Part shown: positions 1 to 63,732 of the stretch, piece by piece
How positions within the stretch are numbered: position 1 is the stretch's first letter
How the letters are laid out: every line of letters begins with the position of its first letter
Source of the DNA: Candidatus Saccharimonadota bacterium
GTDB taxonomy: Bacteria; Patescibacteriota; Saccharimonadia; Saccharimonadales; Saccharimonadaceae
Assembly: GCA_017431725.1 (NCBI GenBank)
Contig: JAFRKN010000003.1
Location: 25,912 to 89,911 of the forward strand
Direction of reading: 5' to 3'
DNA length: 64,000 bases
Notes under the pieces: generated by a model
Databases searched by the model: none
Told to the model about the DNA's origin: nothing
The model's input: the letters and a program-made list of their open reading frames with translations, nothing else
Position numbers and translations under genes: made by a program

Positions 1-710
1 AACAATTCATCAATTTTTTCATCTTGGGCTAGCCCCATAGCCGAAATTACTAAGTCTTTGGTGATTTCCGAATTGGACAATGTAGAAATTTGGTCTAAAA
101 GCGACAAAGAATCTCTAAATGAGCCCCCTCCCCTTTTTGCAATAATTTTTAAAGCTTCATCACTGATCTTGATTTTTTCCTTTTCGGCAATTTTTTTCAA
201 AAAATCAAACATAATTTTTGGATTTGCCAACTTAAAAGTATAAATTTGCGCTCTTGAAGTAATTGTCACTGGAACTTTATAGGCGTCAGTCGTTGCCATA
301 ATAAAAATGATATGTTTTGGTGGCTCTTCGAGAATTTTGAGAAGCGCATTAAAAGCTTCTTTAGTTAACATATGAACTTCATCAATAATATATATTTTAT
401 ATTTACCACTAGTTGGTGCGATTAAAGCTTTTTCGCGTAATTCCCTAATATTATCAATTCCACGGTTGCTTGCCCCATCGATTTCTATAATATCAACATA
501 ATTATCCTCAACCGCATATTCAAATCCGTTCACTTCATGTGCCAAAATTCTTGCTACGCTAGTTTTTCCGCATCCTCTTGGCCCTACAAAAAGATAGGCA
601 TGACTAATCTTCCCCTGCTCTAAAGAATTTGACAGCAACGTTGTTACTTGCTCCTGCCCTACCACCTCGCTTAATTTAAGCGGCCGATATTTTCTATATA
701 AACTCTTCAT
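1..710 (-). CDS. dnaX: DNA polymerase III subunit gamma/tau (3' end runs off the window; not in ORF track)
   Basis: Manual translation from ATG at 710: MKSLYRKYRP...HAYLFVGPRGCGKTS (Walker A)...EIDGASNRGID...IIDEVHML. Confidence 0.96.
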   Translation of the reverse strand, partial: MKSLYRKYRPLKLSEVVGQEQVTTLLSNSLEQGKISHAYLFVGPRGCGKTSVARILAHEVNGFEYAVEDNYVDIIEIDGASNRGIDNIRELREKALIAPTSGKYKIYIIDEVHMLTKEAFNALLKILEEPPKHIIFIMATTDAYKVPVTITSRAQIYTFKLANPKIMFDFLKKIAEKEKIKISDEALKIIAKRGGGSFRDSLSLLDQISTLSNSEITKDLVISAMGLAQDEKIDEL

Positions 711-3692: not shown

Positions 3693-3812
3693 AAAAAAAC
3701 TGGAAATAATACTTTAAGGGGCTTCCGGAGGTTACGACCGAGGATGAGGGCGTGAGCCCCGTGACGACGGGCGCGAACGACCCGTCCCCGAAAAGTATTA
3801 TTCCAGTTTTTT
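3693..3812. repeat. ~120-bp palindromic element, intergenic copy
   Basis: Arms AAAAAAACTGGAAATAATACTTT and AAAAGTATTATTCCAGTTTTTT are near-perfect inverted repeats. The GC-rich core GAGCCCCGTGACGACGGGCGCGA (3754-3776) matches 63235-63257 at 22/23 nt. Confidence 0.9.
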
Positions 3813-61350: not shown

Positions 61351-63732
61351 ATGAATAGATACGAACCTCTCAAAATTGAACAAAAATGGCAAAAAATCTG
61401 GGAAACTGAAAAACCTTTTAAAGCTAATGAAGTTCCAAACCAACCTAAAATGTTTCTGGCCGAAATGTTCCCCTATCCTTCCGGAGCTGGCCTCCATGTT
61501 GGGCATGTCCGTAATTTCACTATTGTTGACGTTTTAACCCGTTTTTATGAACAGCAAAGATTAAACGTTTTAAGACCGTTTGGCTATGATACCTTTGGTT
61601 TGCCAGCCGAAAACTATGCCATCAAAACTGGTATTTCCCCTCAATCCGCCACCAAAACTAACATCGATAATTTTCGTAAACAGGCCAAAAAGCTCGGCTT
61701 TGCCATTGACTGGGATCGCGAAATCAACACTTCTGACCCCGAATATTACAAATGGACTCAGTGGTGTTTTCTACAGTTATATAAAAAAGGGCTCGCCTAT
61801 CAGAAAGAATCTTATCAATGGTGGTGTCCCGAAGATCAAACCGTTCTCGCTAACGAACAAGTCGAAAACGGCAAATGTTGGCGTTGTGGTCACGAAGTCG
61901 AAAAGAAAAAAATGAAACAATGGTTCTTTAAAATTACCGCTTACGCCGATGAACTCCTCGACGAAATTGACAATCTCGAATGGCCCGAAAAAATTAAAAC
62001 CATGCAAAAGAACTGGATCGGTCGCTCTGTTGGCGCCGAAATCGATTTTAAGGTAACCGAAAGTTCTCTTAAAATTAAAGTTTTTACGACTCGCCCCGAT
62101 ACCATCTTCGGCGCTACCTTCCTAGTCGTCGCTCCTGAATATCCTTATCTCGATGTCTTAACAACCGACGATACCCGCGAAACGGTTCTTAATTATAAAG
62201 CCGAAGCCTTGAAAAAATCCGAAATTGAACGTCAGGAAAATAAAGAAAAAACTGGCGTTTTTACCGGAAGCTATGCTATTAACCCCGCAACTAAAGAAAA
62301 AATTCCCATTTATGTTGCTGATTATGTTTTGGCTGGTTATGGCACGGGAGCCATTATGGCTGTTCCTGCTTACGACGAACGTGATCGCGAATTCGCCAAA
62401 AAATTTGATTTACCAATTGTCGAAGCTAAGCTGTGCGATCGCGATCTATTCGGTACTCCCAAAACTATTTATCGTATGCGTGATTGGCTCATTTCACGCC
62501 AGCGTTACTGGGGTTGTCCAATTCCAATCGCCTATGATAAAGAAGGCAATCCTCATCCTATTCCTGAAGATCAACTTCCAGTTATTATCCCAGAGGTCGA
62601 AGATTATCAACCCGATCACTCTGGGCATTCCGCCCTCGCCAAAGCCAAAGATTGGCTTAAGGTCAAAATAGAAGTCAAAGATTCAAAAACTGGCAAAACT
62701 CACCTGGAAGAAATGACCAGAGAGACTGATACATTGGATGGTTATGCTTGTTCATCTTGGTATCTTTGGCGTTATGCCTCACCCCATGATGAAACAGCCG
62801 CTTGGGATCAAAAAGCCATTAAATATTGGGAGCCGATCGACTATTATGTTGGTGCCGATCACGCTGTTGCCCATTTGCTTTATATTCGCTTTTGGTGCAA
62901 ATTTTTTGCCGATGAAGATTATTTGCCTTTCCGTGAACCGATAAAACGCCTTCTTTATAATGGCTATATCAACGCTCCCGATGGCAAAAAGATGTCTAAA
63001 TCTAAAGGTAATGTTATCGACCCACTCGATGTTATTAACGATGGCTATGGTGCCGACACCTTAAGAACTTACGAAATGTTTATTGGGCCATACGACATGG
63101 ATGCCGCTTGGGATCCACGTTCTGTCGGCGGCGTTTACCGCTTCCTTAATCGTTGCTGGACTTTATGCTTCGACAGCGAATTTGCGAAAACCTCTTCTGA
63201 GGGGCATCCACAGTTGCTACGAGGACGAAACGAGGAGCCCCGTGAAGACGGGCGCGACGAGCATCCCGAAGAAGACGGTTTTGCAAATTCGCTTTTTTCT
63301 AGACATAAAACCATCAAAAAAGTCACCGAAGATCTCCACCGCTACAATTTCAATACCGCCGTCGCCGCTTTAATGGAATATGTCAATGAACTTTATAAAA
63401 TCGGCGCATCTGAAGAAGATTTGATTACCTTAGCAAAATTATTAAAACCTTTTGCCCCTCATCTCGCCTCCGAAATGCTAGAAAAATTAAACTCTGACGA
63501 CGAATGGCCAAAATGGGACGAAAAATATCTCATTGCTGATATCGTTGAAATCGTTATCCAAATTAATGGTAAACTTCGCGCCAAACTAACCGTCAACGCC
63601 AGCGACCTAGAAGATGAAGAAAAAATTACCAAACTTGCCTTAAAAGACGAAAAAATTAAAAAATACACCGAAAATGACATCAAAAAAACTATTTTCATCA
63701 AAAAAGCTAAATTATTAAATATTGTAATTTAA
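61351..63732 (+). CDS. leuS: Leucyl-tRNA synthetase carrying an in-frame palindromic insertion
   Basis: MFPYPSGAGLHVGH, TTRPDT, DWLISRQRYWG, KMSKSKGN; extra GC-rich segment at about residues 609-648. Confidence 0.98.
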   Translation: MNRYEPLKIEQKWQKIWETEKPFKANEVPNQPKMFLAEMFPYPSGAGLHVGHVRNFTIVDVLTRFYEQQRLNVLRPFGYDTFGLPAENYAIKTGISPQSATKTNIDNFRKQAKKLGFAIDWDREINTSDPEYYKWTQWCFLQLYKKGLAYQKESYQWWCPEDQTVLANEQVENGKCWRCGHEVEKKKMKQWFFKITAYADELLDEIDNLEWPEKIKTMQKNWIGRSVGAEIDFKVTESSLKIKVFTTRPDTIFGATFLVVAPEYPYLDVLTTDDTRETVLNYKAEALKKSEIERQENKEKTGVFTGSYAINPATKEKIPIYVADYVLAGYGTGAIMAVPAYDERDREFAKKFDLPIVEAKLCDRDLFGTPKTIYRMRDWLISRQRYWGCPIPIAYDKEGNPHPIPEDQLPVIIPEVEDYQPDHSGHSALAKAKDWLKVKIEVKDSKTGKTHLEEMTRETDTLDGYACSSWYLWRYASPHDETAAWDQKAIKYWEPIDYYVGADHAVAHLLYIRFWCKFFADEDYLPFREPIKRLLYNGYINAPDGKKMSKSKGNVIDPLDVINDGYGADTLRTYEMFIGPYDMDAAWDPRSVGGVYRFLNRCWTLCFDSEFAKTSSEGHPQLLRGRNEEPREDGRDEHPEEDGFANSLFSRHKTIKKVTEDLHRYNFNTAVAALMEYVNELYKIGASEEDLITLAKLLKPFAPHLASEMLEKLNSDDEWPKWDEKYLIADIVEIVIQINGKLRAKLTVNASDLEDEEKITKLALKDEKIKKYTENDIKKTIFIKKAKLLNIVI
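63175..63293. repeat. ~119-bp palindromic element in frame in leuS
   Basis: Arms AGCGAATTTGCGAAAACCTCTTC and GAAGACGGTTTTGCAAATTCGCT; core GAGCCCCGTGAAGACGGGCGCGA shared with 3754-3776. Confidence 0.9.

What the first reader, a model, noticed from the sequence alone, without database searches (positions are those of the whole stretch)
63175..63293. Palindromic element translated in frame inside leucyl-tRNA synthetase, with arms apparently derived from its target
About 39 codons (SEFAKTSSEGHPQLLRGRNEEPREDGRDEHPEEDGFANS) are inserted about 60 residues after KMSKS, keeping the frame. The DNA is a long hairpin whose interior matches the intergenic copy at 3693-3812, while its ~23-nt arms are unique. 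Established analogy: Rickettsia palindromic elements insert in frame in housekeeping genes, but they have family-conserved ends. Inference: removing the whole element leaves an unusually short linker between WTL and HKTIKK, so one arm may be native leuS sequence and the other an inverted copy made during insertion. That would be a mechanism distinct from TIR/TSD transposition.
Basis: partly seen in the sequence, partly recalled or inferred. Interest (0 to 1): 0.85.

Follow-up and report, generated by a model that had tools for sequence, protein, structure and literature searches.

The report
In-frame palindromic element in leuS
The 39 extra codons in leucyl-tRNA synthetase are one old copy of a ~120-bp GC-rich hairpin repeat that sits in frame inside dozens of essential genes of these tiny Saccharibacteria genomes, much like the Rickettsia palindromic elements; its arms belong to the repeat and were not copied from leuS.

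Summary
The insert is real: window 63175-63293, 119 nt, in frame in leuS, folding as a long hairpin. It belongs to a family with 31 copies in this 752-kb Candidatus Saccharibacteria (Nanosyncoccus-like) genome and 103 copies in 1.3 Mb of relatives. About 97% of copies lie inside open reading frames, in both orientations and in all frames.

Each copy has an AT-rich basal stem (the arms) and a GC-rich core with two hairpins. Hairpin 2 shows strong compensatory covariation.

The leuS copy is ancient. The same core sits at the same linker in dozens of species, with co-varying arms. In some lineages it is flipped between its arms, and in others it has decayed to arm remnants.

Its arms are not unique. 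Nearly the same arms flank an identical core in a pseudouridine-synthase gene of another species. At a cleanly resolved MnmA loop, both arms are inserted DNA. The idea that one arm is native is therefore not supported for leuS, although stems at another MnmA loop do run into native codons.

New here: copy orientation follows the replication strand (29 of 31 copies), not the direction of transcription. Arms evolve 4-25 times faster than cores yet stay paired. I read this as a new variant of RPE-like selfish DNA. The mobilising machinery is unknown.

The parts
61351..63732 (+). leuS (leucyl-tRNA synthetase), 793 aa, host gene
   Evidence: ORF. Pfam tRNA-synt_1, tRNA-synt_1g and Anticodon_1 on the identical protein P0001.
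63175..63293 (+). A-subfamily palindromic element, whole palindrome (119 nt). Translated as residues 609-647 (SEFAKTSSEGHPQLLRGRNEEPREDGRDEHPEEDGFANS).
   Evidence: nhmmer family profile hit C8:89099-89194. AlphaFold pLDDT is below 50 for residues 610-645, a coil between two helices.
63175..63198 (+). Left arm (AGCGAATTTGCGAAAACCTCTTCT), 5' half of the basal stem
   Evidence: Fold. Homologous arms with compensated changes in G017. Near-identical arm at the RluB site of L048 and the leuS of L031.
63199..63269 (+). GC-rich core: GAGGGG...CCCGA closing helix, hairpin 1, hairpin 2
   Evidence: Core is 93-100% identical to A-type cores in other genes and species.
63235..63257 (+). Hairpin 2 motif GAGCCCCGTGAAGACGGGCGCGA, the most conserved part of the family
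   Evidence: Covariation: 13 of 15 pairs with changes on both sides, 86.8% of cells paired, score 0.374 against 0.146 for shuffles.
63270..63293 (+). Right arm (AGAAGACGGTTTTGCAAATTCGCT), 3' half of the basal stem
3693..3812 (+). B-subfamily copy of the same family, intergenic, with unrelated arms (AAAAAAACTGGAAATAATACTTT / AAAGTATTATTCCAGTTTTTT)
   Evidence: Same orientation relative to GC skew as the leuS copy.
62056..62079 (+). Second insertion hot spot in leuS (residues 236-243, TESSLKIK, between EIDFKV and VFTTRPDT). Unoccupied in this genome; occupied by family members in five relatives.

Best explanation
The leuS insert is an old copy of a non-autonomous, selfish, imperfect-palindrome repeat family of Candidatus Saccharibacteria (Nanosyncoccus-like gut and rumen lineages). 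Each unit is about 110-125 bp. It has an AT-rich basal stem of about 25 bp (the arms) closing a GC-rich three-way junction with two hairpins.

The unit, arms included, is what gets copied to new sites. Only insertions that keep the frame and fall in permissive surface loops survive. That is why about 97% of copies are translated in frame inside housekeeping genes, as short hydrophilic and probably disordered loops. In LeuRS the loop lies in the linker between the catalytic core after KMSKS and the anticodon-binding domain.

After insertion several things happen. The arms diverge quickly but stay complementary. The inner part can flip by recombination between the arms. The core is either strongly constrained or refreshed from other copies. 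Many copies eventually lose the core and leave arm-only hairpins. The leuS arms are part of the element and are not copied from leuS.

Shown: family membership, in-frame residence, age, arm co-variation, inversion, decay, orientation bias relative to GC skew, and absence of a target-site duplication (TSD).

Inferred: translation (from open frames only) and the mode of movement. My working model, at about 35% confidence, is a single-stranded hairpin intermediate handled at the replication fork, in the manner of IS200/IS605 or REP elements. The alternative is orientation-dependent survival of hairpins.
For: Family size and residence:
- 31 copies in the genome.
- 103 copies in 80 loci (1.32 Mb) of related species.
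- 143 of 147 copies lie in open frames of at least 150 aa, 83 sense and 60 antisense.
- Hosts identified by Pfam: LeuRS, AlaRS, ArgRS, MnmA, cysteine desulfurase, Dus, QueA, Tgt, MiaA, Obg, pseudouridine synthase.

Age of the leuS copy:
- The same core (SSEGHPQxLRGRSDEPREDGREERPEED) is at the same linker in dozens of LeuRS sequences with different arms.
- The G017 ortholog has 3 compensated arm changes.
- L113 shows an exact inversion of the inner part between retained outer arms.
- Remnants are found in G001, G004 and G020.

Arms are part of the unit:
- The L031 leuS copy and the L048 RluB-site copy are identical over the core and inner arms, and match at 5 of 6 positions in the outer arm.
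- The C-type unit carries the same 22-bp arms at Obg (two sites), IscS, a P-ATPase and MnmA, and across species.
- MnmA loop 1: net insertion 117 nt against a 122-nt palindrome, with 35 uniform naive alleles.

Structure:
- Hairpin 2 covariation.
- Arm columns: 191 compensated doubles against 202 singles. Arm divergence is about 25% against 6.6% in cores.

Replication link:
- The family '+' strand lies on the C-rich strand in 29 of 31 copies (p = 5e-7), independent of the host-gene strand.
- 25 of 29 independent sites show the same majority orientation.
- The genome has extreme GC skew.
- G.T against A.C mismatches are 98:48 in element orientation and 65:81 in gene sense.

No match to any Rfam family.
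Against: - No transposase or nuclease partner was found. A crude HUH-motif regex gave nothing and there are no near-identical multicopy ORFs. Both tests are weak.
- Old orthologous copies keep cores 90-100% identical while their arms and the host genes diverge. Purely selfish relics should not do this, so it hints at a host-level or nucleic-acid-level constraint or at gene conversion.
- Identical cores with unrelated arms occur in single genomes (L086 x3, L005 x2, G000 C-type). At MnmA loop 2 stems include native codons. Simple 'unit with fixed TIRs' transposition cannot be the whole story.
- The orientation rule has exceptions (2 of 31 in the genome; L047). The L113 reversed allele lies in weak skew.
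Confidence: 0.75

Rival explanations
1. Only the core moves, and each insertion builds the arms by making an inverted copy of the adjacent target flank (snap-back or hairpin-primed synthesis). One arm of every copy, including the leuS copy, would then be native host sequence.
For: - MnmA loop 2: the right arm is made of native codons (GTATTAGTTCG, GTATCGGTCCG or GTATTCAGTTCG, encoding (V/I)(L/S)VR). The left arm is its complement, differing between species while the cores are 97-100% identical.
- Palindrome length exceeds net insertion by a median of 28 nt, about one arm.
- The four C-type copies have 3-4 bp palindromic junctions outside the shared unit (AAAT|ATTT, AAA|TTT, GAA|TTC, AATA|TATT).
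- Identical cores occur with unrelated arms.
- Compensated doubles are about as common as singles.
Against: - The leuS-type arms recur at the RluB site of another species with an identical core.
- C-type arms recur at five or more sites.
- At MnmA loop 1 the whole palindrome is net-new DNA.
- Many 'naive' alleles are remnants, which inflates the 28-nt excess.
- The naive L071 allele already has a native 6-bp inverted repeat, CGAACC(N20)GGTTCG, so insertion into pre-existing small hairpins explains the same pattern.
Confidence: 0.12
2. The cores are domesticated, functional nucleic-acid modules. They could be a replication-strand-specific DNA signal or a protein-binding hairpin that the host maintains, rather than merely selfish DNA.
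For: - Cores are conserved regardless of reading frame and orientation: 6.6% divergence against about 25% in arms, and 0.6% against 15% in the closest pairs.
- The same subfamily core is 97-100% identical across species.
- Orientation is tied to GC skew, not transcription.
- Hairpin 2 covaries almost without G-U pairs, which suggests a DNA-level constraint.
Against: - Presence, absence and subfamily vary freely between species at the same loop.
- Deletion remnants are frequent.
- Several unrelated subfamilies exist, and at least one further family.
- No known RNA family matches.
- Gene conversion among copies could keep cores alike without any function.
Confidence: 0.1
3. The segment is removed before the protein functions, as a small intron at the RNA level or as an intein or bypassed segment, so it is not translated into mature LeuRS.
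For: The arms could bring two 'splice sites' together. No expression data could be obtained.
Against: - 143 of 147 copies keep long frames open, and all net insertions are multiples of three. Spliced elements would not need this.
- 119 nt is too small for a group I or group II intron, and there is no Rfam match.
- Read from the sequence: no conserved His-Asn precedes the downstream junction and there are no intein blocks.
- The elements occur in both orientations.
Confidence: 0.03

Closest known systems
Rickettsia palindromic elements (RPE-1 to RPE-10; Ogata et al. 2000, 2002, as summarised in PMC10969869)
   Same: Palindromic repeats of about 100-150 bp present in dozens of copies in a small, reduced genome. 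Many are inserted in frame in unrelated housekeeping genes. They are compatible with protein fold and no transposase is known.
   Different: - Different phylum (Patescibacteria/Saccharibacteria). No sequence relation was tested.
- About 97% of copies are intragenic here, against roughly half for RPEs.
- RPEs encode a conserved peptide per family. These copies are read in several frames and both orientations.
- The core is conserved while the arms are variable and co-evolving.
- Orientation is tied to the replication strand. To my knowledge this has not been reported for RPEs.
Classical bacterial MITEs (Correia, RUP, ERIC, Nezha and others)
   Same: Short, non-autonomous, hairpin-forming multicopy repeats with inverted-repeat ends, occasionally intragenic.
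   Different: - No target-site duplication.
- The ends are the least conserved part.
- No parent IS in the genome (weak test).
- The copies are overwhelmingly inside genes.
REP/BIME elements with RAYT, and IS200/IS605-derived palindrome-associated elements (HUH, single-strand transposition)
   Same: Imperfect hairpins, no TSD, strand-specific behaviour, and an orientation bias relative to replication as expected for single-strand intermediates. That expectation rests on my own knowledge of IS608 work, not on a test here.
   Different: - REPs are 20-40 bp and extragenic.
- No Y1/HUH gene was detected (weak test).
- The strand carrying the more stable hairpin lies on the C-rich strand, which is the leading-strand template. 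That is not what IS608-type insertion into the lagging-strand template predicts.
Mobile GC clusters and palindromic elements of AT-rich fungal and algal mitochondrial genomes
   Same: GC-rich hairpins spreading in an AT-rich small genome, sometimes inside coding regions in frame, with the mobility enzyme unknown.
   Different: Different genetic system and size, and no sequence relation. This comparison is from memory only.

Membership tests
RPE-like in-frame palindromic repeats (functional class) | Multicopy palindromic repeat of about 100-150 bp | tested here: met
   31 copies in the genome, median palindrome 121 nt with 25 stem pairs.
RPE-like in-frame palindromic repeats (functional class) | Inserted in frame in unrelated protein-coding genes without stops | tested here: met
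   143 of 147 copies lie in open frames of at least 150 aa. Hosts identified.
RPE-like in-frame palindromic repeats (functional class) | Insertion at permissive surface positions of the protein | tested here: inconclusive
   Sites are variable loops between conserved blocks. AlphaFold gives pLDDT below 50 and coil for residues 610-645, but the whole model is only moderate (mean pLDDT 65).
Rickettsia RPE-1..10 (sequence families) | Sequence homology to an RPE consensus | not tested
   No RPE sequences were at hand. A different phylum makes homology unlikely.
Classical MITE | Conserved terminal inverted repeats | tested here: not met
   Arms pair within each copy but differ between sub-subfamilies. 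The core, not the ends, is conserved.
Classical MITE | Direct target-site duplication | tested here: not met
   Flanks of the leuS, RluB-site and four C-type copies show no direct repeat. Junctions are short palindromes instead.
Classical MITE | Parent IS with matching ends | tested here: inconclusive
   No near-identical multicopy ORFs in the genome. No full annotation was possible.
IS200/IS605 or REP-RAYT type single-strand elements | HUH (Y1) transposase in the genome | tested here: inconclusive
   A motif regex found none.
IS200/IS605 or REP-RAYT type single-strand elements | Orientation bias relative to the replication strand | tested here: met
   29 of 31 copies. 25 of 29 independent sites.
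IS200/IS605 or REP-RAYT type single-strand elements | Extragenic location (REP) | tested here: not met
   About 97% of copies are intragenic.
Intron or intein | Catalytic RNA fold or intein splicing blocks | tested here: not met
   No Rfam match at E <= 10. The 39-aa peptide has no intein motifs.

The most novel reading that the evidence does not exclude
These are a new kind of transposase-less, replication-fork-dependent hairpin element. A single-stranded Y-shaped hairpin would be taken up in a fixed polarity relative to the fork, preferentially into small palindromes or old hairpin remnants in permissive coding loops. Its stem would then be re-templated arm-to-arm, which extends it into host codons, while cores are refreshed by conversion. 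The element would be continuously rebuilt in place inside essential genes of an ultra-small genome.
Probability: 0.25. Interest if true: 0.85.

Novelty: new variant of a known kind. Interest (0 to 1): 0.62.

Why it matters
In-frame selfish palindromes are textbook only for Rickettsia. Finding a denser, older and structurally distinct family in Saccharibacteria suggests that ultra-small symbiont genomes repeatedly tolerate this kind of DNA inside essential genes. About 1 copy per 13-24 kb and 97% inside genes show this, with hosts including at least three confirmed aminoacyl-tRNA synthetases (LeuRS, AlaRS, ArgRS) and many tRNA-modification enzymes.

It also explains many lineage-specific 'insertions' in proteins of the Candidate Phyla Radiation (CPR).

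Three observations make the unresolved question of how such elements move and persist directly testable with metagenomic population data. First, orientation is locked to the replication strand. Second, cores are conserved whatever the frame. Third, arms evolve fast yet stay complementary.

Practically, these inserts confuse gene calling, alignments and phylogenies of CPR marker proteins.

Tried and rejected
Searches that found nothing:
- Rfam searches of three copies gave nothing relevant.
- A scan of viral contigs for the hairpin-2 motif gave 0 hits.
- A regex for HUH transposases gave 0 hits. This is a weak test.
- An all-against-all ORF comparison found only diverged paralogues and no IS.
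- Literature searches found nothing on such elements in Saccharibacteria or the CPR.

Ideas tested and dropped:
- Stop-codon avoidance in all six frames. Cores are no more open than composition-matched shuffles, typically 4 of 6 frames. Frame-keeping is therefore a survival filter, not a design feature.
- Selection on mRNA structure. There is no G.U excess in gene-sense orientation.
They turned out to be deletion remnants.
- Reversed-core alleles as a natural experiment for the orientation rule. This was inconclusive: L113 has weak skew and L047 is an exception.
- A codon-level 'native column' analysis of the arms was too noisy to decide which arm is native.

Weak result:
- AlphaFold of LeuRS gave only a moderate model.

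- The fetch from genomes regions.
- The genome search after its first use.
- The look-up of sequencing runs.
As a result I could do no read mapping, no RNA-seq check and no whole-genome searches of relatives.
Full report
**1. The observation**

leuS occupies window 61351-63732 on the + strand and encodes 793 aa. Residues 609-647 (SEFAKTSSEGHPQLLRGRNEEPREDGRDEHPEEDGFANS) are encoded by 63175-63293. This is a 119-nt imperfect palindrome that keeps the frame and starts 58 residues after KMSKS.

As a single strand it folds at -55.7 kcal/mol (z = -4.7; 0 of 200 shuffles fold as well). The intergenic copy at 3693-3812 folds with z = -6.7. The two copies share the hairpin motif GAGCCCCGTGANGACGGGCGCGA, found twice against 0 expected. 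Within the window the description is accurate.

**2. It is one member of a large family**

The window lies in a 752-kb, 18-contig genome of about 39% GC. Source names attached to homologous proteins and contigs identify Candidatus Saccharibacteria / Candidatus Nanosyncoccus from ruminant and human gut metagenomes.

A profile built from the cores finds 31 copies in the genome. It finds 103 more in 80 loci (1.32 Mb) of related species fetched around mnmA.

Of the 147 copies, 143 lie inside open frames of at least 150 aa, 83 in sense and 60 in antisense. Hosts confirmed by Pfam include LeuRS, AlaRS, ArgRS (two copies), MnmA, cysteine desulfurase, Dus, QueA, Tgt, MiaA, Obg (two copies) and a pseudouridine synthase. 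GyrA, further synthetases, UvrD-like and others are suggested by motifs only. The same core is read in different frames and orientations, giving EPRNDGRE, SPVTTG or APVVTGL, so no conserved peptide is being selected.

**3. Anatomy**

Every copy has an AT-rich basal stem (median 25 pairs, whole palindrome median 121 nt). Next comes a short G/C helix (GAGGGG...CCCCGA). Inside that is a three-way junction with two different hairpins. There are at least five core subfamilies.

On an alignment of 75 cores, hairpin 2 is strongly supported:
- 13 of 15 pairs show changes on both sides.
- 86.8% of cells are paired.
- The covariation score is 0.374, against 0.146 for shuffles (0 of 500 reach it) and at most 0.108 for slid controls.
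- G-U pairs are almost absent; the changes are GC<->CG swaps.

No Rfam family matches.

Cores are not unusually free of stop codons. Typically 4 of 6 frames are open, the same as in shuffles. In-frame residence therefore reflects which insertions survive.

**4. The leuS copy is ancient**

Dozens of Saccharibacteria LeuRS sequences carry the same core translation at the same linker, flanked by different but mutually matching arm translations: EFAKT/GFANS, ESCKT/GFEDL, KLLKT/GLKSL, EAVKA/GFTAS.

At the DNA level, the G017 ortholog differs from this genome by three compensated double changes in the arms.

Other lineages carry the same core reversed (PSSSGRSSRPSSRGSSLRPRSDCGCPSEE) between similar arms. 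In L113 the inner part is the exact reverse complement, lying between the retained outer arms GAATTTGC...GCAAATTC. That is the outcome expected from recombination between the arms.

Still other lineages have different subfamilies at the same linker.

The short alleles in the genus (G001, G004, G020, G006) align to the ends of the element and retain arm or inner-arm sequence. They are deletion remnants, not naive sites. Only other families have an unrelated linker of about 24 aa.

A second hot spot in leuS (residues 236-243) is empty here and filled in five relatives.

**5. Are the arms unique and target-derived?**

They are not unique.

- The leuS copy of L031 and the copy in the pseudouridine-synthase gene of L048 are identical over the core and inner arms (GCAAAACC...GGTTTTGC). 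Their outer 6 bp differ only by a compensated change, GAATTT/AAATTC against GATTTT/AAAATC. The protein data show the same DDFAKP...TVSQNQ arms in many RluB homologues.
- The C-type unit keeps its 22-bp arms (CGCGAGGAATACCCTCGTTC...) at two Obg sites, IscS, a P-ATPase and an MnmA loop, and across many species.
- At MnmA loop 1, 35 species share a uniform naive loop (GHYAR-xxxx-LLRAVDENKD). About 30 species carry insertions of many subfamilies. This genome's insertion adds 117 nt against a 122-nt palindrome, so both arms are inserted DNA.

For leuS, then, the arms are part of the element.

It does not require a native arm.

**6. What simple TIR transposition does not explain**

(a) Arms are hierarchical. 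Related copies share the core, then an inner arm, and differ outside it.

(b) Single genomes hold 100%-identical cores with unrelated arms: L086 three times, L005 twice, L038 twice, and in this genome three C-type and two D-type copies.

(c) Just outside the conserved C-type unit the four junctions are short palindromes: AAAT|ATTT, AAA|TTT, GAA|TTC, AATA|TATT. No direct repeat is present.

(d) At MnmA loop 2 the right arm consists of the native codons for (V/I)(L/S)VR and the left arm is its complement. The two arms differ together between species while the cores stay 97-100% identical. A naive allele (L071) already has a 6-bp native inverted repeat around the loop.

(e) Palindrome length exceeds net insertion by a median of 28 nt. 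Remnant alleles inflate this figure.

(f) In 39 nearest same-site pairs, arm columns show 191 compensated doubles against 202 singles.
   - Arm divergence is about 25% per nucleotide against 6.6% in cores.
   - In the closest pairs it is 15% against 0.6%.

Together these observations mean that the arms are kept complementary by templating or strong selection. They also mean that cores and arms have partly separate histories, through conversion of cores, re-insertion into old hairpins, or both. I could not discriminate among inverted target duplication, insertion at palindrome centres and later stem extension.

**7. Link to replication**

The genome has an extreme GC skew. Contig skews reach +-0.3 and third-codon-position skews reach +-0.5 to 0.7. 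65% of coding DNA lies on the G-rich strand.

The element's '+' strand is itself G-rich in every copy. Yet it lies on the locally C-rich strand in 29 of 31 copies (p = 5e-7), whatever the host-gene strand. Across relatives the count is 99 against 29 copies, and 25 of 29 independent sites show that majority orientation (p = 1e-4).

Transition mismatches in the arms are G.T 98 against A.C 48 in element orientation (p = 4e-5). In gene-sense orientation they are 65 against 81. The strand-specific constraint therefore follows the element and the replication strand, not the mRNA.

Two readings fit. One is polar insertion through a single-stranded intermediate at the fork. The other is preferential loss of copies whose more stable hairpin sits on the lagging-strand template. 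Exceptions exist, and the reversed leuS allele lies in weak skew.

Inference: copies are about 4-5 times denser in genes on the C-rich strand.

**8. Translation and protein context**

Open frames and insertion lengths in multiples of three argue for translation and against splicing. AlphaFold with 54 homologues gives a moderate model (mean pLDDT 65). Residues 610-645 have pLDDT below 50 and form a coil between helices 589-612 and 643-663.

**9. Comparison and novelty**

Functionally this is closest to Rickettsia palindromic elements. It fails two MITE criteria, conserved ends and a TSD. It shares hairpins, lack of a TSD and a replication-strand bias with HUH-type single-strand elements, but no such enzyme was found (both weak tests), and the copies are intragenic. 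I found no description of such elements in Saccharibacteria or the CPR.

I rate it a new variant of a known kind. The family as a whole is more interesting than a single insertion suggests.

**10. Limits**

Relatives are species-level representatives, so no near-identical filled and empty pair was available. Many counts include orthologous, non-independent copies; site-level counts are given where possible.

Noticed in passing
window 62056-62079 (leuS residues 236-243): This is a second insertion hot spot in leuS, between EIDFKV and VFTTRPDT at the start of the editing domain. It is empty in this genome (TESSLKIK). Family members of several subfamilies occupy it in G017, G012, G020, G019 and G006.
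   Followed up: partly
whole genome (G000 contigs; window = C8:25912-89911): Strand composition asymmetry is extreme. Contig GC skew reaches +-0.3 and third-codon-position skew reaches +-0.5 to 0.7, with the sign depending on gene strand. 65% of coding DNA lies on the G-rich strand.
   Followed up: partly
G000 C10 about 3000 (mnmA C-terminal loop, outside the window); L040; P0242 (Obg): Many apparently element-free alleles are internal-deletion remnants. Examples are FRSGLRPVGPSILVR in this genome's MnmA, ACTGGGG..CCCCAGT in L040, and EREEYPRS|KERSENDGYPRI in a 92%-identical Obg. Core loss that leaves arm-only hairpins is a common fate.
   Followed up: partly
L079:about 10500, L094 (mnmA loop 2); P0255, P0258, P0264 (Obg site 2); L079 (iscS): A second, unrelated in-frame palindromic insert of about 170-190 nt encodes ...LEFSSTSYAG(Q/T/A)P(A/G)EPSLRDEP(V/L)G.VRNIRVENSN... 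It recurs at the same permissive loops in several species, with a fold of about -90 kcal/mol.
   Followed up: no
G000 copies: Host genes are dominated by tRNA- and translation-related enzymes: several aminoacyl-tRNA synthetases, MnmA, IscS, Dus, QueA, Tgt, MiaA, a pseudouridine synthase and Obg. I did not test whether this exceeds what such a small genome offers.
   Followed up: no
G000 copies versus strand: Copies are about 4-5 times denser per kb in genes on the C-rich (lagging) strand, where they are in sense, than in genes on the G-rich strand, where they are mostly antisense.
   Followed up: no
L113:21399-22349: A relative carries a PD-(D/E)XK/DUF3799 gene followed by RecT next to pheS. 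This looks like a phage-type single-strand annealing pair. Such systems act at the lagging strand and could be relevant to hairpin-element biology. Its presence in this genome was not checked.
   Followed up: no
I did not examine them. The family profile did not hit those positions: it found only two copies in the window.
   Followed up: no
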